A stretch of DNA of 32,000 nucleotides from Candidatus Saccharimonadota bacterium (GCF_003351905.1 NZ_CP022339.1:90001-122000); one strand, 5' to 3'. Counted from the stretch's first letter, positions 4,052 to 26,007 are shown. Notes: generated by a model not told the origin, from the sequence alone. Program-made: numbers and translations.

Positions 4052-6145
4052 ATGACCTATGATGATGCTTCTAAAATCTACGTAAGCAATCGTAAGGACA
4101 CTATTGTTTGTTCCAGTTGTATCGCTTCTTTGGTTCAAAAGTTGTTCTCTACAATTTTTTTCATTGTACTATGTCGCAGTTGTCTGTTATACATTGTAGG
4201 CTTCAGCTGTAACTGCAACAATAGTGATGCAACCTCTGCGGCTGATATTACTCCATCACGACATCATGTGACCCAACCCCACTGTTTAGGCACTGTAACT
4301 ACGTTGGGCACAAATGACCCAATTGGCTATATTATAGAAGAGCGTCGCCTACTTGATCCAAAAAGTAAATGGAAGCAAGACCAACTAAAAAGCACCCCAA
4401 AAGTAATATTCCATCTGCATGATCAGGAATCCATCGCGCTCCCTGATGGTGCAGTGCCCAATTGGCAAGCGTATGGGATAGCGCCCTTTATGTTTTGTCA
4501 GATCAAAAGTTTAGGCGATAAACATATTGTTGCTTTGGATTTGAATGGCGCTAAATTTCAAAATGGTGAACAATTGGGTTTTATATTCGTGAAAAATAAC
4601 CGAACGCTAGTTGATGTGATGCAGCATTTGATAGGGTGTCCTGATCAATCCTATGCCTGTAGGCAGATCAAAGATGGTTTGATCCTCCCTGGCGTTGTCA
4701 GCGGATATCTATTGCAATCTGAATCTATTTTAAATAGATCTATAGATTTAAATAGTTATTCGAATGGCTATTGCTATATTAAAAAAGGTGATCATTACTG
4801 TTTTATTCCCTTAAAAAATAGCGTTCCTGAAGTTAAACTAGTACAGCCAGTAGCTGGTTCATCGTATAACAGCATACTCCCAACAAACATACAACCATCA
4901 TTATTAGAAAATAGGATAGATGCACCGCCTGTACGTCCTTTATTTTTAAAAAATGACGCGCCATCGGCTGCCTTATCTATGGTTCATGAGGAAGCTGTTA
5001 CAGATAGGTCTATGCAAACGAATGATATAGAATCCGCTCCGCTCAACCTATTAGGAGGTGTAGGTGGCGGTCTGTATAGTGATAAGGCAGCGCACAATAA
5101 TGGTTTATCCGAAGCCATGCGCGCAGAAAAAATCATCCAGATGAAGCAAAAAGCCTTGAATAAGATAGTAAAAAAGATAGCAACCTATACCATCATCCAC
5201 GAGCAAGTTATAAAAACCATACAAAAAATAAATTTAGACAAGGTCGTATTAAATGATATAGTGCAAAACCACTTTAAACCAAATGTTGGCAGCACGTTAC
5301 AATTGGTGTTCAATCCGGTATTGCAAGCGATAAGCCAATTGCAAGCTGCATTGATATTAGAAAAAAGTTGCCAACTCGGTATAGAATATAGTAGGCCCAC
5401 CTATCTTAGCGATCAATGCAGTGCACTAATAAAACAATTAAGAAATTTAGAAGTAGCTATATGTGAGGAATATTTCGAAATCTTATCTACAGAAATCTTA
5501 CTGCATCAGGTAATAGAATTTTTCGAAAGTATGTATGATTTACTCCTTTACATCAGACGCTTATACATTCTGAATCCAACAGATCGCATGCGGCAATGTG
5601 TCAAACAATTGTACATTGAAGATGATAGGCAATCCAAAACGGCGCAAGTCATCATAGAACAGCTAGAAAAACTAGAAGATGAGCAACTCAGTATGGTCCG
5701 AGAGGTAAGAAAAATAGCCTCAAAAAGAGCAGGAACACTAGTAGCGATACAAGATGCCGTCACCTTAGTACGTAATCCATTGGAAAATGCAATACATACC
5801 ATACGCGCATTAGATTTAAGAATCAAGCTGAGGCTAAACTTAAACGTTATAGTAGGGAAGGTGAAAAACCTTAAGCGCCTCAAAGAGATTATAGCAGATT
5901 TAGACTTAGCCAAGGAGTATATATGCGCCATACGAGTGCGTGTACATGATCCCACTTTAAAGATACTAAAAGCAGCCATAGCAAAACAGATACAAACAGC
6001 CACAAATGAGGCATTAAAGCTAGCAAATAAACTTGAAACAAATTTGCGATCAAAAACAAATAGTATGGTCGATCAGGAAAAAGTACTTAAAACACTATTG
6101 CCAACAATAGATGCCTGTGATGATGCTGGGTATGAAGCAGCATAA
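4052..6145 (+). CDS. Hypothetical protein, probable lipoprotein with a long C-terminal helical/coiled-coil half
   Basis: 697-aa ORF. The N-terminus has a hydrophobic stretch ending in a lipobox-like IVGFSC. The C-terminal roughly 350 aa are rich in heptad-like L/I/K/E/Q. No recognisable catalytic motif. Antisense ORFs inside it are shadows. Confidence 0.6.
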   Translation: MTYDDASKIYVSNRKDTIVCSSCIASLVQKLFSTIFFIVLCRSCLLYIVGFSCNCNNSDATSAADITPSRHHVTQPHCLGTVTTLGTNDPIGYIIEERRLLDPKSKWKQDQLKSTPKVIFHLHDQESIALPDGAVPNWQAYGIAPFMFCQIKSLGDKHIVALDLNGAKFQNGEQLGFIFVKNNRTLVDVMQHLIGCPDQSYACRQIKDGLILPGVVSGYLLQSESILNRSIDLNSYSNGYCYIKKGDHYCFIPLKNSVPEVKLVQPVAGSSYNSILPTNIQPSLLENRIDAPPVRPLFLKNDAPSAALSMVHEEAVTDRSMQTNDIESAPLNLLGGVGGGLYSDKAAHNNGLSEAMRAEKIIQMKQKALNKIVKKIATYTIIHEQVIKTIQKINLDKVVLNDIVQNHFKPNVGSTLQLVFNPVLQAISQLQAALILEKSCQLGIEYSRPTYLSDQCSALIKQLRNLEVAICEEYFEILSTEILLHQVIEFFESMYDLLLYIRRLYILNPTDRMRQCVKQLYIEDDRQSKTAQVIIEQLEKLEDEQLSMVREVRKIASKRAGTLVAIQDAVTLVRNPLENAIHTIRALDLRIKLRLNLNVIVGKVKNLKRLKEIIADLDLAKEYICAIRVRVHDPTLKILKAAIAKQIQTATNEALKLANKLETNLRSKTNSMVDQEKVLKTLLPTIDACDDAGYEAA

Positions 6146-8098: not shown

Positions 8099-11000
8099 AT
8101 GATCTGTTTGAATATGTCCCTATTTATAGTGGCTGCTTTTTTATTATTAACCTTAATAGTAGGTGGCTACTTTAGTAGAAAAAAAACCACCTTTCGAGAA
8201 TATGCAGTGGGGCATAAACAGTTTGCGACGGCTACTTTGGTAGCTACCGTATTGGCTACTTTTTTTCAAGGGGGTGGGTTGGTACGTAATATAGAATGTG
8301 TCTATGATCTTGGCTTGTGGTTTACAGTTATTTTGCTTTTGGTGCCTCTTGGCATGTGGAGCACTAGCAGATTTGCATTGCGTATGGGGCCATTTATGCA
8401 ACACCTCTCTCTGGCAGAAACAATAGGTAGTATTTATGGTACGTATGCAAAGGTTATCACTGTTTTGGTTAGCATTTGTTGTAATATCCTCCTAATTACT
8501 TCTCAAATCGTCATTGTCTCCCAAACTATTGGCATTTGTGTAACTTTAGATAACCCTTATGTAATTCCTGTTCTTTCCACCTCAATCCTTATTTTTTATT
8601 CTACCTTTGGGGGGGGCCGCGCGGTTACCTTGACAGATGTGTTCCAATTTATCACTTTTTCCATTGTTATTCCTTTGCTTTGTTGGTTTGCCTTTGCAAA
8701 AATAGGAAAACCAGTTGCAACCATTGTTCCTATACTACAGAGTCACACTAAGTTTCAGTTTACCCACTTATTTCACTCTAATAACCAGCTAATTCATATA
8801 GTACTACTGTTGTTAGCTGATATACCGAGTAGTATAGTAGCTTCTCCTCTTACGCAACGGGTCTATATGGCTGCTAGTCCTATTCAAGCCCAAAAAGTTT
8901 TTTCGTATGCTGCTATTTTTAGTTTTATTATTCAGGTTTTTATAGTTTTAATTGGTCTATTTATTTTTGTCGGGGCATCAAACTTACCCAAAGTAGAAAT
9001 TTGGCCCTATATAATGGGCCATATCCCTCCTCTTTTTAAAGGATTTGTTGCCAGTATACTCGCTATGGTGATGTCTACTGCTGATTCTTGCTTAAATACT
9101 TGTGCGGTTATGGTCAGCCATGATATAGCAAAAAGCCTAATAAAACAAAAAAAGATTAGTGATTCCACTCAGCTTAAAATAGCCAGGTGGACTACACTAA
9201 CGGTGGGCCTATTATCTATGGTCATAACTTTTAAGTATAATGATTTGTTAAAATTAATGTATTGGGGCCTTAACTGTCGGGTACCTATACTAACCGCTCC
9301 TTTTATTTTAGCTGTTTTTGGTTTTCGGGGTACTCCTCGAACGGCTTTAGTAGGTATGACTACAGGTGCATGCACTATTTTAGCGTGGAACAAATGGATT
9401 AAACCTGCAATAGAGATAGATGGTTCTTTTATGGCTATGGTGGCCAATGGATTAGCGATGCTAGCGGCCCATTATCTACTGAAGCAGCCAAAAAGTGCTG
9501 GGTGGGTGAAACCAGATCATGAGTTTAAACAAGTACAACAAGCCCATGCGCGCAATAGAGCGGAGCGAAGGGAGATGATTAAAAATGGTTGGGCCAATAG
9601 AAAATCCACTTTGTCTAAGCTGATACCTAGTGATGCTGCCTTACGTTTAACAGGGCTTTATGTGGTCATTACGGCTATTCTAGGTTATTGGTTTATTAGG
9701 CCAGATCATATCTATTGGGCGATATGTCAAGGCCTTGTGGGTGCCCTGCTTACATCTTCTAAAACCTTTTTTAGCAGCGCAATTCCCGCCTGGTGTATTG
9801 GTTTGGGCTGGCTTATAGGGTTAGTGGTTTATCTGCCTCTGAGTCTGCTTGGACACTGGTGGTATCTTGTAGATCCGATCTTTACCGCATCTTTGTCTTT
9901 GGCCCATTGTGCTGTAATCCTATGGGTTTTGCCACTCCATCTGGGCATAGGGGTTGTTACCACTACCTTATTAATAGCCATTTATCCTATGGCTATTGGA
10001 TTGACTTTGCCAGTATTGTCTGCTTTATTTCCGCTGTTCATAGCAGGCTTAGTGGTATTTGCTATGGCTATTTACTTTAAGGTAAAGGTACGCAATTACA
10101 CCACTCAAATTCTTTACTTAAAAGATCAAGAAGGGATTAGAGAAGCACAACAACTGAAAGCCTCTCTTTATGATTCGGGTACGGTTCCTGCTACTATAGT
10201 TAATAAGTCTAAGGGTTATGGCGCTATTTTAACACAAGTAGTCGGTAAGATTGAAGAATCTATTTCTTTTTTAGATAGCAATGTGCCACTTTATAAGCAA
10301 GATTTTCAGAGTATTATTAATAAATTGTATGATTGGGTGGCCTATTTTAATAGAAGAGAAAGGGCCAAAAAACATGCCCTGCTGCAGCCTACTAAAATTA
10401 CTTTAGATAAACTGATACGTAAGGTAGAATTGGCGTTAGGCCAAGAGGTAGCGCATCCGCCTAGGTTGTTGATAGAAAAGATAAACGATTCCAATGGAGC
10501 GCCATCTCCGCATATGGTATGTGATATCAATCAAATTGCCTATTTACTGGTGCAGGCTGTGTTACGTGTTGGTAAACGAGCGGGTACATCAATTGTTCAT
10601 ATACGTTTCCATAATACTGCTTTACAGTTTAAGCAAGCCGATGCTATTGACAACAGCTATCCTCTATCCATGCTTTTTCAAGCTACTGCCCTGGTAGTCA
10701 GTCAGGCTACTACTCTCCCTGAAGTGATGGTCAAAGTAAAACCTGTCTATGATGATGAGATAGATATGATGGGCCATCAAGGAAAACAGGACACACCACC
10801 CTCTATAGATCTTCAACAGGAAACCATATCCAGTATTGTGGGGGGGCATTATGGCCATTTAGAAATCTTCGATGGCGAGCAGCAGCCAGCTATGCTACTG
10901 GTATTGCCTAGTAATGTCACTGATATTCTTAGTAAAATAACGATTAACTTACCTCTAGATGAGTTAACCTTAGAGACCCCTGTCACCCCTAAGGAACAAG

Positions 11001-11644
11001 CCGATTCCATGATGGCATTAATGCAGTTCCATGATCATGTTAGTAGATCTTCTCATCGAGCGGATCCTATTGATATAGGTATTATTTCAGGGTTGCTTTT
11101 ATTGCTGCGGCAGCATTTTGGCTTTAAGCGACATGCTTCGGGTCAATTGTTTTATGTACGTGCGGTAGGTATTGCGGAAATAGTCGTAAAATGGGTATTT
11201 CACTCTCCTAAGGTGATTTATGCTGCTTTGCTCTATGAGTTGGTGCGTCGTACCTGTTTGCCGCTTTCTTATGTCAAGGAACATTATAATTTAGGCGTAT
11301 ATGCTTTTGTATTGAATGTAGTAGGCATAGATAAACGGCAAGCATTGGATCATCCTTCTTTGCTGTATGTGCAAAATCGATTGCAAGAAGCAATTAAGGA
11401 GGAACATGTACAGCTTTCCGTTCTTTTTATCAAACTAGCCGAGCGGCTCTATGACCTACGTCATGCAGCAGGTTATAGCCATCTCTCAGAAGTACAACAT
11501 ATGGCGCAAGAAACCCTGACCATAGATGTGGAGTTAGCCAATGCCTACTTGGGCCCAGAGATAGGCGTGGCACTAGAAAAAGCAGCCAAACAGGCATTAG
11601 AACTGGGCAAACATAGACGAAAGGATCAAGATAATGAGCTATGA
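8099..11644 (+). CDS. SSS-family transporter domain fused to an extra TM block, a degenerate histidine-kinase-like module and a degenerate RelA/SpoT-type HD domain
   Basis: 1181 aa (alternative start at the ATG at 8114, MSLFIV). SSS motifs: FREYAVG, YSTFGGGRAVTLTDVFQ, AMVMSTADSCLNTCAVMVSHDI. A second TM cluster lies at about 9640-10080. HK-like tail: VCDINQIAYLLVQAVLRVGKRAG ... ISSIVGGHYGHLEIFDGEQQPAMLLVLP. SpoT-like region: HASGQLFYVRAVGIAEIV..AALLYELVRRT..FIKLAERLYDLRH..AQETLTIDVELANAYLG. Confidence 0.8.
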   Translation: MICLNMSLFIVAAFLLLTLIVGGYFSRKKTTFREYAVGHKQFATATLVATVLATFFQGGGLVRNIECVYDLGLWFTVILLLVPLGMWSTSRFALRMGPFMQHLSLAETIGSIYGTYAKVITVLVSICCNILLITSQIVIVSQTIGICVTLDNPYVIPVLSTSILIFYSTFGGGRAVTLTDVFQFITFSIVIPLLCWFAFAKIGKPVATIVPILQSHTKFQFTHLFHSNNQLIHIVLLLLADIPSSIVASPLTQRVYMAASPIQAQKVFSYAAIFSFIIQVFIVLIGLFIFVGASNLPKVEIWPYIMGHIPPLFKGFVASILAMVMSTADSCLNTCAVMVSHDIAKSLIKQKKISDSTQLKIARWTTLTVGLLSMVITFKYNDLLKLMYWGLNCRVPILTAPFILAVFGFRGTPRTALVGMTTGACTILAWNKWIKPAIEIDGSFMAMVANGLAMLAAHYLLKQPKSAGWVKPDHEFKQVQQAHARNRAERREMIKNGWANRKSTLSKLIPSDAALRLTGLYVVITAILGYWFIRPDHIYWAICQGLVGALLTSSKTFFSSAIPAWCIGLGWLIGLVVYLPLSLLGHWWYLVDPIFTASLSLAHCAVILWVLPLHLGIGVVTTTLLIAIYPMAIGLTLPVLSALFPLFIAGLVVFAMAIYFKVKVRNYTTQILYLKDQEGIREAQQLKASLYDSGTVPATIVNKSKGYGAILTQVVGKIEESISFLDSNVPLYKQDFQSIINKLYDWVAYFNRRERAKKHALLQPTKITLDKLIRKVELALGQEVAHPPRLLIEKINDSNGAPSPHMVCDINQIAYLLVQAVLRVGKRAGTSIVHIRFHNTALQFKQADAIDNSYPLSMLFQATALVVSQATTLPEVMVKVKPVYDDEIDMMGHQGKQDTPPSIDLQQETISSIVGGHYGHLEIFDGEQQPAMLLVLPSNVTDILSKITINLPLDELTLETPVTPKEQADSMMALMQFHDHVSRSSHRADPIDIGIISGLLLLLRQHFGFKRHASGQLFYVRAVGIAEIVVKWVFHSPKVIYAALLYELVRRTCLPLSYVKEHYNLGVYAFVLNVVGIDKRQALDHPSLLYVQNRLQEAIKEEHVQLSVLFIKLAERLYDLRHAAGYSHLSEVQHMAQETLTIDVELANAYLGPEIGVALEKAAKQALELGKHRRKDQDNEL

Positions 11645-17516: not shown

Positions 17517-18374
17517 ATGAACATGTTAAGGAGCTCTTTGTTGCTTTGTTTTTTTACACTGTTTTTCTTATCCGGATGTAGATGGCTACGCCGTGGTTCG
17601 AAATTCGAGCTATTAAAACTTGATAAAACAGAGACTGCACCAGTGTCATTAGAACCTGACAAAACAGAGCCCGCACCAGTGCCATTAAAACCTGAGCAAA
17701 CAAAGACCGCATCAGTACCATTAAAACCTGACAAAACAGAGGGCATTCCACGTGTAAATGCGCATCATCAACAACAAAAGCCAGTTGATCCAAAGCAGCC
17801 ATCTGATCATCCTTCTACCTATTTTCCTATGCATCAGGAAGCCGGTCCCAATAATATGCTACAGCAGAAGGTTGAGCAGATAATAAAGCAGAAGAAGCAT
17901 CAAGAGGAGTTGACCTATAAGCAAAAAGAGGAGTTGCTCAATCAAGCATATGAGCAGGCAAAGCAGGAGTTGGAGGAGAATAAAAAACAGATGCAAGGTA
18001 AGTTGGGGGAGCAGGAACAGGCGTATGAGAAGGTATGTAAGGAGGTAGACGACCTGACGGAGCAAGAGGAGAAAAAGAAGAAGGAATTGGATAAGTTGAA
18101 TAATATCAACAGGCAGAAGCAGTCGAAGAATATGAATAAGCGGAAGAAGAAGTTGCAGAAGAAGCAGAAAGATGAACAGCAGGAAAAGGTGGAGGAGCTG
18201 TCTACGGAAATAAAGAAGCTGCAGGGAGATAAAAAAGACAAAGAGCAGGAGTCGGGGAAGCTGCGTGATGAAATAAACAAGCTGAACGACCAGATGAAGG
18301 ATCTGGAACAAGAATTGAACAATCTGGACCAAGAGCGGGAGGAGATAAAGCAAATGATAGCGAATGAGGCATGA
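17517..18374 (+). CDS. Lipoprotein with a 12-aa tandem repeat region and a K/E/Q-rich coiled-coil tail
   Basis: Signal peptide plus lipobox: MNMLRSSLLLCFFTLFFLSGC. Repeats: LDKTETAPVSLE/PDKTEPAPVPLK/PEQTKTASVPLK/PDKTEG. The rest is highly charged and low-complexity (KKQMQGKLGEQEQAYEK...). Confidence 0.7.
   Translation: MNMLRSSLLLCFFTLFFLSGCRWLRRGSKFELLKLDKTETAPVSLEPDKTEPAPVPLKPEQTKTASVPLKPDKTEGIPRVNAHHQQQKPVDPKQPSDHPSTYFPMHQEAGPNNMLQQKVEQIIKQKKHQEELTYKQKEELLNQAYEQAKQELEENKKQMQGKLGEQEQAYEKVCKEVDDLTEQEEKKKKELDKLNNINRQKQSKNMNKRKKKLQKKQKDEQQEKVEELSTEIKKLQGDKKDKEQESGKLRDEINKLNDQMKDLEQELNNLDQEREEIKQMIANEA
17616..17744 (+). repeat. 36-bp tandem repeat, about 3.6 copies, in-frame inside the lipoprotein gene
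   Basis: Units: aaacttgataaaacagagactgcaccagtgtcatta / gaacctgacaaaacagagcccgcaccagtgccatta / aaacctgagcaaacaaagaccgcatcagtaccatta / aaacctgacaaaacagagggc. Confidence 0.85.
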
Positions 18375-18516: not shown

Positions 18517-18764
18517 CACTGGTTTTTGTGTGCAAAGAAAAACACCCCTGTAAAAAGTTGCGGTATGGAAAGTGGCATTATACAGATGATTTGGAAAAAC
18601 AGTTTCCTTTGAAGCCCCAAATGGGGTGCTTTTTGTTTTTCCATCTATAGGATGTCACTTTCAGCGACTTTTTACCGAGGGCTTGATTTTTTGTCCACTT
18701 TTTTATCAAGAAAAAAGTGGACAAAAATCATTATTAACCAGTATCGTGAACGTATGACAGATAC
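18517..18764. repeat. Dispersed intergenic repeat, copy B (long form), with a perfect 14-bp palindrome ttgtccactttttt-atcaag-aaaaaagtggacaa
   Basis: Both ends match copy A (3813-3960). It carries about 95 extra internal bp (18557-18651) that are absent from copy A. Confidence 0.8.
18612..18640 (+). terminator. Candidate intrinsic terminator inside repeat copy B
   Basis: aagcccc-aaat-ggggtgctt forms a GC-rich 5-7 bp stem (one bulge or wobble), followed by ttttgttttt. It lies about 240 nt downstream of the lipoprotein stop. Confidence 0.4.
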
Positions 18765-19296: not shown

Positions 19297-21312
19297 TCAT
19301 TTTCCCTGTATATAACTTTCCTCAATGTTTTTCATTTTTTTTGGTAAGACAGTCATATTTATAGGTACCCGCTCACTCCATATAAGTTCATTTTTATATT
19401 GCATCCAATAACTAATATATACGTTGTCACACTTAACAGGCTCATCAGCCTTACGAGGATTAACTTTCTGGTATAGACGATGTAAATAATTCTCTAGATT
19501 CTCTTTTTCAACCTCCTCTTTAAAGATTAATACGACCTTCTCTTTATTTTTATTCTCGTTGATTAGATATAGATTCTTCTTACTATGCTCAGTTATATAC
19601 TTACTGATATCTTCCTTTATATTTGTATCGTCTATAAATACTATAAAACCTCGATGTCTGCGCGCATCTATATCAAACCCACTAGGTGTTATATGAACGG
19701 TAGGAAGTTTATAAAAAACATCATCTGGCTCAAAAAACCCAGTTTTGATGATCGTAACATGCGTTTTTGTATGGTCTAATGTTATCTTTGGCTTATCCGG
19801 CTTTGCTGCTTCCTTTAATTCCGGTTTTGGTGGCTTCGTTTCGTTTACTTCATCTACTTCTATACTTAATGGTTCTCTTTGTCTGTAAAACTTAAGCTTA
19901 TGATCTATAAATAGACAAACCATATATTCGTAATCTGTTCCATGACTAAAAAAGTCGATGCAAGATGAATCAAGTGGTTTCCGTACATCTGTTACAAGAC
20001 AGATGGTGCCATCATCTGTCACACTCGTATTGCTATGGGATCTAGGTGATGCTTCAAATAAAGTTTCCAGCTTATCGGTCCTCCAAATCGTATCTTTTGG
20101 TAAAAAGAATAAAGCTACTTCTGCGTTTGGAGGTAGTGGGGTGACTTGATCATTAACGGTATACTCAATGGTACAATCAGATAATTTTACAGCTCGAACC
20201 TGGCCTGATGCTTGTTCACGGTAAAGCTTTAAATCCAATACTTTTAAACTATGACTATTACCCGTAAAGGTAATAGAAGGCGGGACACTTTCTTGAACCA
20301 ATGGGCTTTCTGTAACATTAGATAGGATATCTCCCATTTGACTCAAATAATAGTGCGGACCTTGAATCAAATAACAAAGTATCTTAAACTTACCCCCTTG
20401 AATAGGGGATTGGCTGTTGCACAATGTACCTATTATCGGAGGATCCATTCTCCTTAACCTACCTGGAATAACAATCATCTCATCATTAAATGATGTAACT
20501 TGAGTAGGCCATTCATCTCCAGAAGTTATGATTTGCTGCACCAAATGATAAGGGTTGATCCCTTCTTTAACTAATAGGAAACCTACTTTTTCATCTTTTG
20601 GGTAAAAATTAGTCAGCCCACCTTTTAAGAACCAACCTGTACCATTTTTTCCCTGGTTTTCAATAGCATCCATAGCTTCCAGTCTGATACCTCGATAATT
20701 TGGCAACGATGGATGCGTTTCTGTGCGATCCATTTGGAAGGGAGTAGTAGAAACTACATAATCTTGGGCAGATGCACCACTTGGTGCATATATCATATGC
20801 ATGGTATATTTTTTTGAGGTTAATTTTTTATAGGTTTCCTCCTCTGCTTGAATCGTCCATTCTATTGGACCCGCACCAACTTTATTGATTTTATTCCAAT
20901 AGATAAAACGATCTTTATCTAGCCATATAAACTTTTCAACCTCATTTTTAACATCCATAGCACTTTTTACTAAGGATAATAGTTCCGTATCGAAGGTAGC
21001 AGGTTCATGGCATGTAGCACCATCTAGACACCCTATAAAGGCTACCTGACCTTTTGATGCAGGCGCTACATTAGAGATATGCCCCTTAAACCGGAAGAAC
21101 CAATCTGTTTTAGCTCCCCCCATACAACTGAGACTGCCTAGTGGCCTACAAAAAGAGCAAGCAACCACTGGCTTATTAGGAAGCGCCGAATCTTGACTAT
21201 CTACAATAGATGCAATAGGAGCCTGCGTACACCGGGGACATCCTCCTCCCCATAGGCTATAAATAAATGATAATGATAAATAACGTAAGTGTTTATGCAA
21301 CATGTTGATCAT
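19297..21312 (-). CDS. Hypothetical 671-aa protein; the Cys-rich N-terminal roughly 100 aa may be PAAR-like (DUF4280-like); C-terminal domains unknown
   Basis: Long uninterrupted ORF, co-oriented with and 110 bp downstream of the 1496-aa ORF. N-terminus: SLWGGGCPRCTQAPIASIV..VVACSFCRPLGSLSCMGGAKTDWFF..VAFIGCLDGATC. K/P-rich linker: ETKPPKPELKEAAKPDKPK. No Walker or other catalytic motif seen. Confidence 0.6.
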   Translation of the reverse strand: MINMLHKHLRYLSLSFIYSLWGGGCPRCTQAPIASIVDSQDSALPNKPVVACSFCRPLGSLSCMGGAKTDWFFRFKGHISNVAPASKGQVAFIGCLDGATCHEPATFDTELLSLVKSAMDVKNEVEKFIWLDKDRFIYWNKINKVGAGPIEWTIQAEEETYKKLTSKKYTMHMIYAPSGASAQDYVVSTTPFQMDRTETHPSLPNYRGIRLEAMDAIENQGKNGTGWFLKGGLTNFYPKDEKVGFLLVKEGINPYHLVQQIITSGDEWPTQVTSFNDEMIVIPGRLRRMDPPIIGTLCNSQSPIQGGKFKILCYLIQGPHYYLSQMGDILSNVTESPLVQESVPPSITFTGNSHSLKVLDLKLYREQASGQVRAVKLSDCTIEYTVNDQVTPLPPNAEVALFFLPKDTIWRTDKLETLFEASPRSHSNTSVTDDGTICLVTDVRKPLDSSCIDFFSHGTDYEYMVCLFIDHKLKFYRQREPLSIEVDEVNETKPPKPELKEAAKPDKPKITLDHTKTHVTIIKTGFFEPDDVFYKLPTVHITPSGFDIDARRHRGFIVFIDDTNIKEDISKYITEHSKKNLYLINENKNKEKVVLIFKEEVEKENLENYLHRLYQKVNPRKADEPVKCDNVYISYWMQYKNELIWSERVPINMTVLPKKMKNIEESYIQGK

Positions 21313-21422
21313 GAATGAAATAAATTAACCTTTGCCTAAAGGTAGTACGTAGGATAGATGATACTACAAATAGTAGACATTATGAATAACATATCATTAT
21401 AGAATTATTATATGGCTTGGTA

Positions 21423-24400
21423 CTACTCAGGTATCCAAAATAAAATAATTTCTTCTTGCATCCAAGGTAATTTAAGCTTATTCATAGACCAAGGAGGCAG
21501 TAAATCACCTGTATCGTGGTCCTGATGCATCATCGTTAAATGCCAAAATTTTTTCTCTGTAGTGTCATCAGCTTGGTGGCTGGTTAAAATACCTAATCTA
21601 TTTAAGAAATAGTCTTTTACTATCCTTTCCAGGGTAGCGTTTTGAAATGCATCGGTTTCTTGCAGTTTTGTTATGCTTTTCCAACGCTTTAGGACTTTTT
21701 CCATAAGCAGTTGGCTATTGGCTGATAGGATTGCCATTGTGTTACTAGATGTGGATGTTTCTGTTTCTATTTCTATTTTTGATGTAGTCCCGTCTTGGGA
21801 CGCTTGGAGCTGTTGGTCTGACGTAGTGCCCTTTTCTTCTACTTGATCATATATATCCTCCGTTTCATCTATAGGCTTATAGGGTAGCAATACTGCATCA
21901 TAAGATAATCCACAAAGTAGTTTAGGAAGGGTAAGCTGCCATTCGGGACTCTTTAGCTTACCTGTAACCAAATATTGTAAGAGATAGACTGCATTATGGG
22001 CTGCTTGGTCACAGAAAAATTGGTCGTCAACCATAAGATTGTTTAACTTGAAAAAATCATACAAAAAGGGCCATAGAAATACCAAGCCTGTATTTTTTGT
22101 ATATACCTGAACCGATGCTTCTGGTAGACGAACTTTTTGAGGTGATGTTTTTAGTGGCGCTTTTTCTAATGACTGATGGACTAAAGCTGACTGGGATGGG
22201 TGCATGTGCTTAATTAATGGCTTAAGTAAGGTGATCAGCTGATCTGCTTCCTGGTTCGTAGCCTTTGTATCGACAATTGAGGTAATGATTTTGTAAATAG
22301 TTCCTTGAGTATAGCAAGTGGTCAGTAAGGTACTGTGTACAAACTCTTGGGCTGCAAATGACTTTTTTGAAATTAAATAATGCATAATAGAAATGCAGAG
22401 TTCCTTTTTCCATGTGGATGGATGATGGAAGGGTATAGTTGTATCTAGCAATGGATGGTTTAAAAGAGTTAGGTAGTGCATGACAAATGGAGCGTTGTCT
22501 TTTGCTAAACAGGTTATAATTTTTGTAGTCACTTCTTCGCTAAAATAGTGGACTATGCGCCTGGCTGTTACTTGATGATTGTCCTGATCTGCTAGAAGTT
22601 TTGGTAATTCAAGTGGTTGGTCTTCCATAAATTGAATCAACTCATCGCCTAATCGCTCTATTGTTAGATGATACTGCTGGGCAAAAAGAGATAAGTTGCC
22701 ATTAAGCAGTAGATAAAGCTTGATTAAGATAGGTGCGTGGTATCCACGCTGCCTAGCTTGTTGTTGGAATACTTGACTATATTTTTCTTGTAGCCTGTTC
22801 AATGAAGCAGTTAACGTTTCTGGTATCTCCTTGGTATCAAGTAGTTGAAAAGTTGTTAGTAGGGTAGTTGGTGTAACTTCCAGTACGTTACTCAATTCAG
22901 TAGTAAGGTCCGCAAGCCAATCATCTGGTGCAATAGATGTCTGAGGTAGTGTTTTTAATACACCATCCCAAAATAAATTTTTAGTCATATTTTGCTCGCC
23001 TAGTGCACCTTGTGTGTCACACCACCATTGATAGCTCCCTTGTATGAAGGTTGTTAACGTTTTACCTATTGCACTATGTCTTTGAATCAATTGCATCAGT
23101 TGCGTATGGGTAAAATTTGCGATAAGGCGTTGCCGCACATGTGCTTTATCTTGGGCTAAAGAAAAAGTAGAAAGGTGTGTGAGCACATCACTTAACAAGG
23201 CTGTTGCATCTGTATAATTTCCAAGCTTACCCGTATGCAAAAAGAGGTGCCATCTTTCTATAATCCTCTTTTTTTTGCCTAGTATCACATCGGCAATCTG
23301 TTTGTAGAGCGTGATGCGCATCGTTTCCTGTAATGGTAGGTTGGGTAAGTGTTGTGCAACCAATTGGTCGATGATGGAGGGAGATAGCTCAACAGATTGG
23401 CGTACCATCTCTTTAATAGCTGGTAGTAGCCTACTATAGTAAAGTGGTACAAGAGCTTGGTCTAATGTTTCATGTGTAGATAGAAACATTAGATCCACTT
23501 CATCTATTTTAGTTAGTTTTAATGGCGTTAACTTCTCTTTGAGGAAAGAAAAAATCTCTACCAGCTGGTAATCGGTTTCCTCTCTGGCTGCATCAATTAA
23601 CGCATCACATAAACGGGTTGGGGGAGATGCAGTTTGTGCGCTCAGATGGAATACGATACGCTCTATATATTGTTTTTCTGGTGGAGTTTCTCTAATTGCG
23701 GCAGCAATAAAAATTTCTTTAATGGAACGGATATGGCCCTGTTGCTGGGTGCGCTGCAACACTTGCATCATGACCCTTTCTAGGCGATCCAGCATCTGAT
23801 GGGAACAAGGGACAAAGGCCTGCAATAGTTTGGCTACAGTGATCTCTGTAGCATGTTGCATGAGCTTTTTTAAAATGGTTGCTTCTTGGCACCAAGGTGC
23901 TAATTGATCTCTTATCTGTTTGGGTGTGGCACGCTCCAAACACTTAGCTATGAAGTAGGCTGGCACCAACTGATCATTTGGCAATACATTATCAACAAGA
24001 AAATCCACTACATCTGCCAATGGATGGTTATGGGTACCATCTAAACGAGTGGTGTGCTGCTTGGTTTGCGATGCGTCAACCGGTTTTGATGTGCTATAGG
24101 TTTGTACTATATAGCTCTCTTGGTCTACTTTAGGTGACACACGCGCCAAACATGCTGCTAGATCTGGATAGGCTTTCTGTTCTGCTATATCAGATAGTCG
24201 GTCACATAATGCGTCAGCAGATAAGGAGGTATAAGGCGCTAGATAACCTATCACACGTCCTATATATTGCCTAGTAGATGGCGCATCCACGGCTGCTGTA
24301 ATAAACATATTTTTGAGATGGTCTATGTTTGCTTGGCATTCAGTAGATTCAAGGAATGCAATCAGAACGGTTTCGAGTTTAGGTAGCCACTCCATTGAAA

Positions 24401-25913
24401 GAGGAATGGATGCTGGCAAGCTGTGCTGTATGATAGGCGGCTGCATAGCCGCTTTGTTATTTGCATCAGGCATAACAGGCCAAAGGCACGTGGTCTCCTT
24501 GGGCATCTCTGATGATAAGGTCGATATGGATACCAGTGGGGCTATTATAGCTTTTATAGCTGGGTTATAGGTTTGAGTAGTTAGCAATTTGGCGCATTGT
24601 TGCGGGCTGATTACACCATTGGCCATATGTGTTCTAAACAACGCGTGCATCTCTTCAAGATAAAATGTTTTAGAATGTTCAAAGGCACAATAGGCTAAAG
24701 TCATAGCTTTAATCGCACAAGCAGGTGTGGTGGCAGCAGTAGTAGCCGTTGCGATTTGCATACAATCAGAAAATATACCTACAATAGAAGGATCTATAGA
24801 GGCTAAGCAGGCAACAAAGAGCCTATCAGGTAAGTTTTGAACCAACTTTTCCCTATTTTTTGCTTCCTGCAGCCAGCTTTTTACTAGAGGTCGTATACCT
24901 GTTCGGTCCATTGCCCGTTTCATACTACCTATAGCGGCTGATAGTTGATGGGGCGCCATGCCATTATTGGCTATTTTGTCCAATTCTTTTACTATTTGTT
25001 CCTTATTTTTGATACTTTCATACCCGAATTTTAGTGGCGTTATCGCTAGGTCACGCAACTGAAGCACCAATGCTTTCGTAGTGGAGTCAAATGAGGGTTT
25101 TTTTTCATTTTGTGCGTAATAAATCTGTAATGCTTCTAGCATTTTTTCGTAGCTGGTAGAGGTTTGTAGGGCGACTTGCTTGAGGAGCATGCGCAAAAAA
25201 CCCATTCGGTCTACTTTGCCTCTTGGTTGGTTGATGATACTCAATAGAGTCGTTGCAAACAATTGCTTCGTATCTAACAAGTTGGTTGCAACCCTCTTTT
25301 GTTGTAACAATATTCCTATTTCAGTTAGGATAGGCTTAAAGTAAGCTATAGGTTGTTTCAATAAGCAGGAAAGAGTTCGCTCTACAGTAGACCGAGCAAA
25401 AAATGTCATACAACGTTGGACAGCTTTTTCCTTTTTATGCAGATCATACCAAAGCTGTTCTATAAGCAGAGGCGTGTAGTGCAGCAATTCTAGATATATT
25501 TTTTCAATTTGTTTTTCAGAACGTTCGATCATCCACCACGCCAAATGACCTTCTGATAAATAGTGTGCTATGGCTTGCCGTTTTGCCTCTGGTAGTGGGA
25601 TTACTGCAGTAGGGTTATGGATGACCTTACGCATCTGTTCTTGTAATTTAAGCATTAACACCTGTTCTACCTGACAAGGGAGTTGTTTGTCAAGGGTAGA
25701 TAGATATACGTCACCTCCATCTATAACCAGCTTGTCTAAATGGATGACTACATCACTAGGCACATATTGAGCAAAGAGTTTGGATAAAATGGGTATAATT
25801 CGTTTTTGGACAGCTTGCTGAACGGTGTGATAGAGCATGCTATTTTGACTATGCTGATCAATAGTTACTTCAATCCGACTACGTAGAATGACATGATGAT
25901 TTTTTGTAGGCAT
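21423..25913 (-). CDS. Giant helical protein resembling contractile-injection-system tape measure proteins (Afp14/Pvc14-like)
   Basis: 1496-aa ORF. N-terminus: HHVILRSRIEVTIDQ..IIPILSKLFAQYVPSDVVIHLDKLVIDGGDV. C-terminus: RLGILT..WHLTMM..DLLPPWSMNKLKLPWMQEEIILFW. Both match my recollection of the conserved termini of this family. Internal repeated helical modules are present. Family assignment is from memory and was not computed. Confidence 0.55.
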   Translation of the reverse strand: MPTKNHHVILRSRIEVTIDQHSQNSMLYHTVQQAVQKRIIPILSKLFAQYVPSDVVIHLDKLVIDGGDVYLSTLDKQLPCQVEQVLMLKLQEQMRKVIHNPTAVIPLPEAKRQAIAHYLSEGHLAWWMIERSEKQIEKIYLELLHYTPLLIEQLWYDLHKKEKAVQRCMTFFARSTVERTLSCLLKQPIAYFKPILTEIGILLQQKRVATNLLDTKQLFATTLLSIINQPRGKVDRMGFLRMLLKQVALQTSTSYEKMLEALQIYYAQNEKKPSFDSTTKALVLQLRDLAITPLKFGYESIKNKEQIVKELDKIANNGMAPHQLSAAIGSMKRAMDRTGIRPLVKSWLQEAKNREKLVQNLPDRLFVACLASIDPSIVGIFSDCMQIATATTAATTPACAIKAMTLAYCAFEHSKTFYLEEMHALFRTHMANGVISPQQCAKLLTTQTYNPAIKAIIAPLVSISTLSSEMPKETTCLWPVMPDANNKAAMQPPIIQHSLPASIPLSMEWLPKLETVLIAFLESTECQANIDHLKNMFITAAVDAPSTRQYIGRVIGYLAPYTSLSADALCDRLSDIAEQKAYPDLAACLARVSPKVDQESYIVQTYSTSKPVDASQTKQHTTRLDGTHNHPLADVVDFLVDNVLPNDQLVPAYFIAKCLERATPKQIRDQLAPWCQEATILKKLMQHATEITVAKLLQAFVPCSHQMLDRLERVMMQVLQRTQQQGHIRSIKEIFIAAAIRETPPEKQYIERIVFHLSAQTASPPTRLCDALIDAAREETDYQLVEIFSFLKEKLTPLKLTKIDEVDLMFLSTHETLDQALVPLYYSRLLPAIKEMVRQSVELSPSIIDQLVAQHLPNLPLQETMRITLYKQIADVILGKKKRIIERWHLFLHTGKLGNYTDATALLSDVLTHLSTFSLAQDKAHVRQRLIANFTHTQLMQLIQRHSAIGKTLTTFIQGSYQWWCDTQGALGEQNMTKNLFWDGVLKTLPQTSIAPDDWLADLTTELSNVLEVTPTTLLTTFQLLDTKEIPETLTASLNRLQEKYSQVFQQQARQRGYHAPILIKLYLLLNGNLSLFAQQYHLTIERLGDELIQFMEDQPLELPKLLADQDNHQVTARRIVHYFSEEVTTKIITCLAKDNAPFVMHYLTLLNHPLLDTTIPFHHPSTWKKELCISIMHYLISKKSFAAQEFVHSTLLTTCYTQGTIYKIITSIVDTKATNQEADQLITLLKPLIKHMHPSQSALVHQSLEKAPLKTSPQKVRLPEASVQVYTKNTGLVFLWPFLYDFFKLNNLMVDDQFFCDQAAHNAVYLLQYLVTGKLKSPEWQLTLPKLLCGLSYDAVLLPYKPIDETEDIYDQVEEKGTTSDQQLQASQDGTTSKIEIETETSTSSNTMAILSANSQLLMEKVLKRWKSITKLQETDAFQNATLERIVKDYFLNRLGILTSHQADDTTEKKFWHLTMMHQDHDTGDLLPPWSMNKLKLPWMQEEIILFWIPE

Positions 25914-25974: not shown

Positions 25975-26007
25975 TCTGGCTTTTTACCAAAAATTTAAAA
26001 AGCCAGA
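25975..26007. repeat. 12-bp perfect inverted repeat (tctggcttttta-N9-taaaaagccaga) between the mpg stop and the start of the 1496-aa ORF
   Basis: The arms at 25975-25986 and 25996-26007 are exact reverse complements. It could be the mpg transcript terminator or an operator for the downstream giant gene. No clean T-run follows on either strand. Confidence 0.5.

What the first reader, a model, noticed from the sequence alone, without database searches (positions are those of the whole stretch)
19297..25913. Two-gene orphan module: CIS tape-measure-like giant protein plus a 671-aa partner, embedded among housekeeping genes
These are the two largest unexplained ORFs in the window (1496 aa and 671 aa). 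They are co-oriented on the minus strand with a 110-bp gap. The flanks are ycgN on one side and mpg on the other. The first ORF looks like the length-ruler of a contractile injection system, but no sheath, tube, spike, baseplate or cap gene lies within 32 kb. One possibility is that the ruler, and perhaps a spike-tip or cargo protein, of a CIS encoded elsewhere has been split off. The other is that the fold has been co-opted for something different. A split CIS locus in an intracellular symbiont would affect how such machines are regulated and loaded. This is my top candidate for the novel system.
Basis: partly seen in the sequence, partly recalled or inferred. Interest (0 to 1): 0.8.

Follow-up and report, generated by a model that had tools for sequence, protein, structure and literature searches.

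The report
Known Cardinium injection-system ruler plus lipoprotein
The large gene is the already annotated length-ruler (Afp14-like tape measure) of the phage-tail-like secretion system of the insect symbiont Cardinium, whose genes are known to be scattered around the genome. Its 671-aa neighbour is a lineage-restricted predicted lipoprotein that is probably not part of that machine.

Summary
Two co-oriented minus-strand ORFs of 1496 aa (21423-25913) and 671 aa (19297-21312) lie 110 bp apart, between mpg and a CxxCxxCC (ycgN-like) gene. No other CIS gene is in the 32 kb.

The window is from Cardinium endosymbiont of Sogatella furcifera (cSfur). The 1496-aa protein matches Pfam CIS_TMP (E 2.4e-61) and is already named "Afp14-like protein" in NCBI.

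The "split locus" is published. Penz et al. 2012 found the Cardinium AFP-like (now T6SSiv) genes in five genome regions, with the Afp14 homologue (CAHE_0118 / Aasi_1806) in a locus apart from the sheath/tube and spike/baseplate gene runs. Later papers report the system in all sequenced Cardinium, cSfur included.

The partner is a small orphan family: 20 hits among 1.84 billion representatives, and every one with a named source is Cardinium or an Amoebophilaceae MAG. It has a lipoprotein-type signal and generic tandem beta-sandwich domains, so it should be exported rather than loaded as cytoplasmic cargo or spike tip.

TMP-partner adjacency is limited to part of Cardinium. In an Amoebophilaceae MAG and in cCpun the two genes are on different contigs. 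The partner is split in two strains and missing from the locus in two others, while the TMP stays intact.

Verdict: already known and ordinary. A low-probability reading remains that the lipoprotein is an envelope accessory.

The parts
21423..25913 (-). Afp14-like tape-measure protein (TMP) of the Cardinium T6SSiv / AFP-like contractile injection system, 1496 aa
   Evidence: PF19268 CIS_TMP, E 2.4e-61. 100% identical to NCBI 'Afp14-like protein [Cardinium endosymbiont of Sogatella furcifera]' (P0001). Orthologues of 1255-1800 aa are found across Cardinium and Amoebophilaceae MAGs.
25245..25898 (-). TMP N-terminal conserved module (residues ~6-223)
   Evidence: Matches CIS_TMP profile positions 1-214, E 1.2e-25. 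It holds many invariant residues across 14 orthologues (A2).
22197..25244 (-). TMP middle region (residues ~224-1239), an expansion between the N- and C-terminal Pfam modules
   Evidence: Fragments 251-480 and 481-700 have no Pfam match, and 701-1000 has only sub-threshold matches to unrelated families. Residues ~1032-1239 weakly match CIS_TMP profile positions 79-240. An internal ~85-residue duplication pairs residues ~498-580 with ~696-779 (local score 137; shuffles 30.5 +/- 5). BLASTP coverage of only 58-70% for most orthologues points to a variable middle.
21426..22112 (-). TMP C-terminal conserved module (residues ~1268-1496), including the invariant C-terminal PPW...KLPWM motif
   Evidence: Residues 1268-1351 match CIS_TMP profile positions 299-382, E 1.3e-25. 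Invariant columns cluster at 1271-1345 and 1409-1492.
21313..21422 (-). 110-bp intergenic gap between the TMP and the partner
   Evidence: Sequence read. No terminator-like hairpin was scored there; there is one weak sigma-70-like match (9/12) at 21386-21358 and no Bacteroidetes TAnnTTTG motif on this strand. Co-transcription is possible but untested.
19297..21312 (-). 671-aa partner: Amoebophilaceae-restricted predicted lipoprotein with tandem beta-sandwich domains
   Evidence: No Pfam, NCBIfam, PHROG or PDB sequence family. Only 20 hits among 1.84e9 representatives. Signal peptide plus lipobox Cys is conserved across the family. AF2 models have pLDDT 70.5 (whole) and 77.8 with pTM 0.76 (residues 46-342); fold searches return only generic Ig/FN3 arrays.
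25976..26006 (-). perfect 11-bp hairpin between the mpg stop and the TMP start
   Evidence: CTGGCTTTTTA-(9 nt)-TAAAAAGCCAG read directly. It is not a canonical intrinsic terminator (no T tract after it) and was not scored. It may separate mpg from the TMP unit.

Best explanation
The 1496-aa gene encodes the tape-measure protein (Afp14 / Aasi_1806 / CAHE_0118 orthologue) of the Cardinium T6SSiv. This is the phage-tail-like, cytoplasm-anchored contractile injection system thought to form the microfilament-like arrays typical of Cardinium.

Inferred mechanism, by homology with Afp14 and phage tape measures: the conserved C-terminal module docks in the spike/baseplate hub. The extended polypeptide fills the lumen of the growing inner tube. 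When tube and sheath reach the N-terminal end, the Afp16-like cap binds and stops elongation, so the roughly 1000-residue expansion of the protein sets a long tube.

The gene lies apart from the sheath/tube and baseplate clusters because T6SSiv genes are dispersed in several loci throughout the Amoebophilaceae. That arrangement predates Cardinium.

The 671-aa neighbour is a separate matter. It is a Sec/SPII-exported lipoprotein built of beta-sandwich modules, specific to the Amoebophilaceae. It came to lie downstream of the TMP gene only in one part of Cardinium and is dispensable in several strains. Most likely it is a cell-envelope or host-facing lipoprotein that is not a structural part of the injection machine.
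For: TMP identity:
- CIS_TMP at 208.9 bits. Both terminal modules of the profile are present.
- NCBI name 'Afp14-like' and a family of Cardinium proteins named CIS tape measure.

Dispersed system (literature):
- 16 AFP-like genes in five regions in cEper1, with Afp14 = CAHE_0118 = Aasi_1806 outside the CAHE_0456-0461 and 0760-0763 runs.
- Afp-like clusters compared in seven Amoebophilaceae genomes, cSfur among them.
- All AFP-like genes are transcribed in cEper1, with CAHE_0118 at about 556 in the supplementary expression table (units not stated in the passage read).
- Afp14 acts as a tape measure (Rybakova 2015, as cited).

Solitary TMP is old: in Amoebophilaceae MAGs the TMP sits among housekeeping genes (L017-L019).

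Partner:
- K/R n-region, hydrophobic h-region and a Cys at position 17-29 in nearly all full-length members, e.g. ALGC, LAGC, VSSC, LFGC.
- Only generic Ig-like fold matches, TM 0.1-0.25.
- Adjacent to the TMP in cSfur, TP, Nabis, cEhis1, cEina3 and cBtQ1.
- On a different contig from the TMP in Amoebophilaceae MAG SMAG_U10578, next to mutS-dciA, and on a different scaffold in cCpun.
- Not at the locus in the Oedothorax and Tipula strains.
- Split into 514+125 aa in Nabis and 259+285 aa in the D. farinae strain, while the Nabis TMP is intact.
- A second predicted lipoprotein in this window (4052-6145) shares the partner's most conserved domain and has no CIS neighbour (hhalign 94%, E 1.2e-7).
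Against: - The rest of the T6SSiv in cSfur was not seen here; that rests on the literature.
- The TMP-partner pair stayed adjacent while both flanks changed (cBtQ1 versus cSfur). No terminator is predicted in the 110-bp gap. The partner is under purifying selection in cSfur versus TP (dN/dS 0.45). A functional link therefore cannot be excluded.
- The lipoprotein call is by inspection only, not by SignalP or LipoP. In cSfur the h-region is weak (10-residue Kyte-Doolittle mean 1.41), and some clade A members have N or E at position -1.
- Which flank of CAHE_0118 is the partner orthologue in cEper1 was not established.
Confidence: 0.82

Rival explanations
1. The partner is a lineage-specific envelope accessory of the T6SSiv, co-transcribed with the TMP. 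It could be a periplasmic or outer-membrane lipoprotein that anchors or guides the apparatus through the envelope, a functional analogue of TssJ/TssQ. No TssJLM-type membrane-complex genes are among the AFP-like genes listed for these genomes.
For: - Tight co-oriented adjacency (110-124 bp) in six Cardinium genomes despite rearranged flanks.
- No terminator scored in the gap.
- Lipoprotein signal.
- The family has been found only in a clade whose members all carry T6SSiv.
- Both genes flanking CAHE_0118 are transcribed in cEper1.
Against: - The genes are unlinked in an Amoebophilaceae MAG and in cCpun.
- The partner is absent from the locus in the Oedothorax and Tipula strains.
- It is split in the Nabis and D. 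farinae strains while the TMP is kept.
- No hit named Amoebophilus asiaticus appears among the 20 family members.
- It is not among the 15-16 AFP-like genes listed in the literature.
- A paralogous domain occurs in an unrelated lipoprotein of the same window.
Confidence: 0.12
2. The partner is a spike-tip protein or cargo loaded onto or into the T6SSiv together with the TMP.
For: Only the adjacency to the TMP gene, plus the fact that T6SSiv substrates are unknown.
Against: - The signal peptide and lipobox predict export by Sec and lipidation, whereas CIS cargo and spike tips are loaded in the cytoplasm.
- There is no PAAR, VgrG or toxin domain.
- PAAR and VgrG homologues are already assigned elsewhere in the genome (CAHE_0762 and CAHE_0763).
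- The gene is dispensable in several strains.
Confidence: 0.03
3. The tape-measure fold has been co-opted for a role unrelated to a CIS, in a genome that has no CIS.
For: No CIS gene lies within the 32-kb window.
Against: - The literature reports the complete Afp-like/T6SSiv set in cSfur and in all other Cardinium.
- Both terminal CIS_TMP modules and the C-terminal motif are conserved across Amoebophilaceae.
- The gene is listed as part of the system in cEper1 and is transcribed there with the other AFP-like genes.
Confidence: 0.02

Closest known systems
Aasi_1806 (Amoebophilus asiaticus T6SSiv) and CAHE_0118 (Cardinium hertigii cEper1), the Afp14 homologues
   Same: Same protein family, and the same placement apart from the sheath/tube and spike/baseplate clusters in an Amoebophilaceae genome. 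The NCBI name of the window protein is 'Afp14-like'.
   Different: Strain-level differences only: orthologues are 1255-1800 aa, with a variable middle region. In Amoebophilus the gene numbered next to it (Aasi_1805) is a putative ubiquitin-specific protease, not the lipoprotein.
Afp14 / Pvc14 tape-measure proteins of extracellular CIS (Serratia Afp, Photorhabdus PVC); Pfam PF19268
   Same: Profile match well above the cut-off, to both the N- and C-terminal parts of the model. The inferred role is tube and sheath length determination.
   Different: In Afp the gene sits inside the operon, in the numbered order afp14-afp15 (ATPase)-afp16 (Table 1). Here it is solitary. About 1000 residues lie between the strong terminal profile matches, against a 463-position model. 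The system is cell-anchored (T6SSiv) rather than released.
TMP-AAA+ ATPase pair in Amoebophilaceae MAG GFS_4065 (L004/L005/L019)
   Same: An orthologous TMP (35% identity) lying among housekeeping genes.
   Different: Its downstream gene is a 457-aa AAA ATPase, which resembles the Afp14-Afp15 order. In cSfur that position is occupied by the unrelated lipoprotein.
TssJ / TssQ outer-membrane lipoproteins of T6SS membrane complexes (functional analogy for the partner only; recalled from general knowledge, not tested)
   Same: A predicted lipoprotein encoded next to a contractile-system gene.
   Different: No sequence or fold similarity was found. Linkage to the TMP is confined to part of Cardinium, and the gene is dispensable in some strains.

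Membership tests
CIS tape-measure protein (Pfam PF19268; Afp14/Pvc14/Aasi_1806) | Profile match above the curated gathering score | tested here: met
   208.9 bits against a 27.8-bit cut-off, E 2.4e-61
CIS tape-measure protein (Pfam PF19268; Afp14/Pvc14/Aasi_1806) | Both the N-terminal and the C-terminal conserved modules of the family are present | tested here: met
   Residues 6-223 match profile positions 1-214; residues 1268-1351 match positions 299-382
CIS tape-measure protein (Pfam PF19268; Afp14/Pvc14/Aasi_1806) | Orthology to the TMPs assigned to the Amoebophilaceae T6SSiv | tested here: met
   34-87% identical full-length orthologues in Cardinium and Amoebophilaceae MAGs, named CIS tape-measure or Afp14-like. 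A direct comparison with Aasi_1806 was not run; that link rests on Penz 2012.
CIS tape-measure protein (Pfam PF19268; Afp14/Pvc14/Aasi_1806) | Encoded within or beside a sheath/tube/baseplate cluster | tested here: not met
   No such gene in 32 kb. This is the published state for the Amoebophilaceae, so it does not define membership in this clade.
CIS tape-measure protein (Pfam PF19268; Afp14/Pvc14/Aasi_1806) | Sheath, tube, spike, baseplate and cap genes present elsewhere in the same genome | not testable with these tools
   Only the window is held. The literature reports the Afp-like set in cSfur and in all Cardinium.
CIS tape-measure protein (Pfam PF19268; Afp14/Pvc14/Aasi_1806) | Determines tube and sheath length; found inside the tube lumen | not testable with these tools
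   Needs genetics or cryo-EM. Shown for Afp14 (Rybakova 2015, as cited).
Bacterial lipoprotein (SPII substrate), for the 671-aa partner | Positively charged n-region, hydrophobic h-region and a lipobox ending in Cys within about 30 residues | tested here: met
   Seen by inspection in nearly all full-length family members (LWGGGC in cSfur; ALGC, LAGC, VSSC, LFGC elsewhere). No dedicated predictor was available, and position -1 is atypical (N or E) in some clade A members.
CIS spike tip / PAAR or CIS cargo, for the partner | PAAR, VgrG-binding or toxin domain, and cytoplasmic loading | tested here: not met
   No such Pfam, NCBIfam or PHROG hit; a predicted export signal; only generic Ig-like folds.
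Afp15-type AAA+ ATPase (the usual downstream neighbour of afp14), for the partner | AAA+ domain | tested here: not met
   No AAA hit. The AAA protein that follows the TMP in L004 has no tblastn match in the window.

The most novel reading that the evidence does not exclude
The lipoprotein, and perhaps the wider family that shares its conserved domain (including ORF 4052-6145), is an Amoebophilaceae-specific envelope factor. It would have been recruited next to the TMP gene in one Cardinium lineage to anchor or guide the T6SSiv through the cell envelope. That would supply the membrane component this system is not known to have.
Probability: 0.1. Interest if true: 0.55.

Novelty: already known. 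Interest (0 to 1): 0.15.

Why it matters
It matters mostly as a negative result. The first stage's top candidate for a novel system is the published, dispersed T6SSiv of Cardinium, and the giant ORF is already annotated as Afp14-like.

Three minor new points come out of the work:
- The TMP carries a large lineage-variable expansion with an internal duplication, which fits a long ruler.
- A small orphan lipoprotein family sits immediately downstream of the TMP in part of Cardinium, but is unlinked or decayed elsewhere.
- That family's core domain recurs in another predicted lipoprotein in the same window.

These proteins may interest people looking for Cardinium surface or host-interaction factors. 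They do not change how contractile injection systems are understood.

Tried and rejected
- Exact-sequence look-ups of the window TMP and of P0033 found nothing on record.
- Sequence searches for the partner gave only noise: Pfam, NCBIfam, PHROGs, PDB by profile, and a per-member Pfam scan. The weak DUF2103, DotA and FdhE hits are all below cut-off.
- A PDB sequence search with the TMP returned only a chance hit to a colicin immunity protein.
- Self-BLAST of the TMP reported no off-diagonal repeat. A targeted local alignment did find the duplication.
- Promoter and terminator scans and a Bacteroidetes -7 motif search were uninformative, with counts at or below chance.
- tRNA and Rfam scans of the window were empty. 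The repeat search around the pair found nothing meaningful.
- Bock et al. 2017 (PMC6485382) could not be read, and 'Aasi_1806' occurs in no searchable paper.
- The pattern-based genome scan did not recover Amoebophilus asiaticus 5a2 itself.
- Rejected readings: spike tip or cargo, Afp15-like ATPase, and co-option of the fold. The reasons are given under the rival explanations.


Full report
**Observation.** The two ORFs exist exactly as described: 21423-25913 (-) of 1496 aa and 19297-21312 (-) of 671 aa, separated by 110 bp. Upstream is a methylpurine-DNA glycosylase gene (26029-26583, PF02245). Downstream, and convergent, is a CxxCxxCC (PF03692, ycgN-like) gene. The other ORFs scanned in the window are dnaE, a glutathione peroxidase, two sodium:solute symporters (one fused to an HD_4 domain), leuS, a HemN-like radical SAM enzyme, an ABC exporter, a Vut_1-like transporter, a YhcG nuclease, IS110 and Mutator transposases, and a few ORFs with no family. 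No sheath, tube, spike, baseplate or cap domain was found in 32 kb.

**Source and identity.** The 1496-aa protein is 100% identical to the NCBI protein 'Afp14-like protein [Cardinium endosymbiont of Sogatella furcifera]', on a 1,103,593-bp contig. The partner is 100% identical to a hypothetical protein of the same genome. The window is therefore from Cardinium cSfur.

The large protein matches Pfam PF19268 (CIS tape-measure protein) at 208.9 bits, E 2.4e-61. Scanning fragments gives the following map:
- Residues 6-223 match profile positions 1-214.
- Residues 1268-1351 match profile positions 299-382.
- Residues ~1032-1239 match weakly.
- Residues 251-1000 have no match to the family.

Roughly 1000 residues thus separate the two strong terminal matches, against a 463-position model. 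This stretch contains an ~85-residue internal duplication, residues ~498-580 against ~696-779 (score 137; shuffles 30.5 +/- 5). In BLASTP most orthologues cover only 58-70% of the query, which points to a variable middle. An alignment of 14 orthologues shows dense invariant positions at both ends, including the C-terminal PPW...KLPWM motif. No solved structure is related by sequence.

**What is already known.** Penz et al. 2012 (PMC3486910) reported 16 AFP-like genes in five genome regions of Cardinium cEper1. Their Table S5 pairs CAHE_0118 with Amoebophilus Aasi_1806 as the Afp14 homologue. It lies outside the sheath/tube run (CAHE_0456-0461) and the VgrG/PAAR/gp25/Afp12 run (CAHE_0760-0763).

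Later work adds the following:
- Siozios et al. 2019 compared the Afp-like clusters (15 proteins) in seven Amoebophilaceae genomes, including cSfur.
- A 2025 review and a 2025 comparative paper state that all sequenced Cardinium carry homologues of the T6SSiv characterised in Amoebophilus.
- Mann et al. 2017 found all AFP-like genes transcribed in cEper1. In the supplementary expression table (units not stated in the passage read), CAHE_0118 is at about 556 and its two neighbours at about 350 and 137.
- Afp14 is the experimentally supported tape measure of Afp (Rybakova 2015, as cited).

I could not scan the rest of the cSfur genome myself, so that step rests on the literature.

**The split is ancestral.** A genome-collection scan with the TMP alignment returned 12 loci. 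In Amoebophilaceae MAGs the TMP also lies among housekeeping genes (L017-L019). In one MAG it is followed by a 457-aa AAA ATPase, which recalls the afp14-afp15 order of Afp. Within Cardinium, a Vut1-like-mpg-TMP arrangement is shared by cSfur, TP, Nabis and cBcalN2. cBtQ1 has different flanks.

**The partner.** It has no Pfam, NCBIfam, PHROG or PDB relative. A word-indexed search found 13 homologues; every one that carries a source name is from Cardinium. An exhaustive profile search of 1.84 billion representatives found only 20 proteins. Cluster look-ups assign the named ones to Cardinium strains and an Amoebophilaceae MAG; the rest are unnamed metagenome or read-archive proteins. None is named Amoebophilus asiaticus.

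The alignment and the N-termini show a K/R-containing n-region, a hydrophobic h-region, and a cysteine at position 17-29 in nearly all full-length members. Several members have canonical lipoboxes (ALGC, LAGC, VSSC, LFGC); cSfur has LWGGGC. This indicates an SPII-type lipoprotein, although no dedicated predictor was available.

AlphaFold2 gives a beta-rich multidomain model: pLDDT 70.5 for the whole protein, and 77.8 with pTM 0.76 for residues 46-342. Foldseek against PDB and BFVD returns only generic tandem Ig/FN3-like arrays (mastigoneme, contactins, Fabs, integrin legs, MG-domain proteins, phage Ig-like proteins) at TM 0.1-0.25. An exported lipoprotein is not compatible with cytoplasmic loading as cargo or spike tip, and PAAR and VgrG homologues are already assigned elsewhere.

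**Is it a module?** tblastn of the partner against all fetched loci gives this picture:

| Genome | TMP and partner |
|---|---|
| cSfur, TP, cEhis1, cEina3, cBtQ1 | partner immediately downstream of the TMP |
| Nabis limbatus strain | adjacent, but partner split into 514 + 125 aa; TMP intact |
| D. farinae strain | partner split into 259 + 285 aa; adjacency not examined |
| Oedothorax strain | no partner at the locus; an IS follows the TMP |
| Tipula strain | no partner at the locus; transposase debris follows the TMP |
| cCpun | different scaffolds (116 kb and 105 kb) |
| Amoebophilaceae MAG SMAG_U10578 | different contigs; partner homologue next to mutS-dciA |
| Unassigned metagenome contigs (L006/L007) | distant partner homologue near mutS, no TMP on the contig |
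| Unassigned read-archive contigs (L008, L023) | distant partner homologue, no TMP on the contig |
| Amoebophilus asiaticus | the gene numbered next to the TMP (Aasi_1805) is a ubiquitin-specific protease |

Adjacency is thus derived within Cardinium, and the partner can be lost while the TMP is kept. That argues against a core structural role.

Some points do favour a link. The pair has stayed together through rearrangement of both flanks. No terminator is predicted in the gap. In cSfur versus TP the partner is under purifying selection (dN/dS 0.45), comparable with the TMP at 0.37 and mpg at 0.39. I therefore keep about a 10% chance that it is a lineage-specific envelope accessory of a system for which no membrane complex is listed.

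**A side observation bearing on this.** The orphan 697-aa ORF at 4052-6145 also has a lipobox-like N-terminus. It shares the partner's most conserved domain: partner residues 179-335 against ORF residues 116-263, hhalign probability 94%, E 1.2e-7. The partner's core domain is therefore used in at least two predicted envelope proteins of this genome, and only one of them lies beside a CIS gene.

**Verdict.** The finding is real, but it is explained and already known. It is the Afp14-like ruler of the dispersed Cardinium T6SSiv, together with a neighbouring Amoebophilaceae-specific lipoprotein whose link to the machine is probably positional. Interest is low.

Noticed in passing
window 4052-6145 (+): An orphan 697-aa ORF with only one homologue in 5.8 billion proteins (37% identity). 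Its N-terminus is lipobox-like (IVGFSC) and its C-terminal half looks like a coiled coil by eye. Residues 116-263 share the partner's most conserved domain (hhalign 94%, E 1.2e-7), which suggests a small Cardinium-specific family of envelope proteins.
   Followed up: partly
window 17517-18374 (+): A 285-aa ORF with no Pfam family. It has a canonical lipobox (FLSGC), then DKTExAPVPLKP-type repeats and a Lys/Glu-rich tail that looks like a coiled coil. It is a third predicted lipoprotein in the window.
   Followed up: no
window 8099-11644 (+): A 1181-aa fusion of a sodium:solute symporter domain with a C-terminal HD_4 (RelA/SpoT-type HD) domain. A similar 1138-aa HD_4 protein lies near the partner homologue in an Amoebophilaceae MAG (L021 6273-9689). 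A 545-aa HD_4 gene sits just upstream of the TMP in the Tipula strain (L003 7986-9623).
   Followed up: no
L004 11268-12641; L005/L019 8727-10100: In Amoebophilaceae MAG GFS_4065 the TMP is followed directly by a 457-aa AAA ATPase. This may be a remnant of the afp14-afp15 order that Cardinium has lost.
   Followed up: partly
L011 14513-16448; D. farinae Cardinium proteins P0055 and P0034: The partner gene is interrupted in two strains: 514 + 125 aa in the Nabis limbatus strain and 259 + 285 aa in the D. farinae strain. In Nabis the adjacent TMP remains intact.
   Followed up: yes
window 18688-18727: A perfect 17-nt inverted repeat (TTTTTGTCCACTTTTTT / AAAAAAGTGGACAAAAA, 6-nt spacer) in the intergenic region upstream of the ycgN-like gene. 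It may be a bidirectional terminator or an operator.
   Followed up: no
window 25976-26006 (-): A perfect 11-bp hairpin (CTGGCTTTTTA / TAAAAAGCCAG) lies 23 nt after the mpg stop codon and about 63 nt before the TMP start codon.
   Followed up: no
window 27556-31674: A YhcG/DUF1016 PDDEXK nuclease gene, an IS110-family transposase gene (29282-30019) and a Mutator-family transposase gene (30436-31674) lie close to the pair. Mobile elements also flank or follow the TMP in the Oedothorax and Tipula strains, which fits IS-driven shuffling of this neighbourhood.
   Followed up: no
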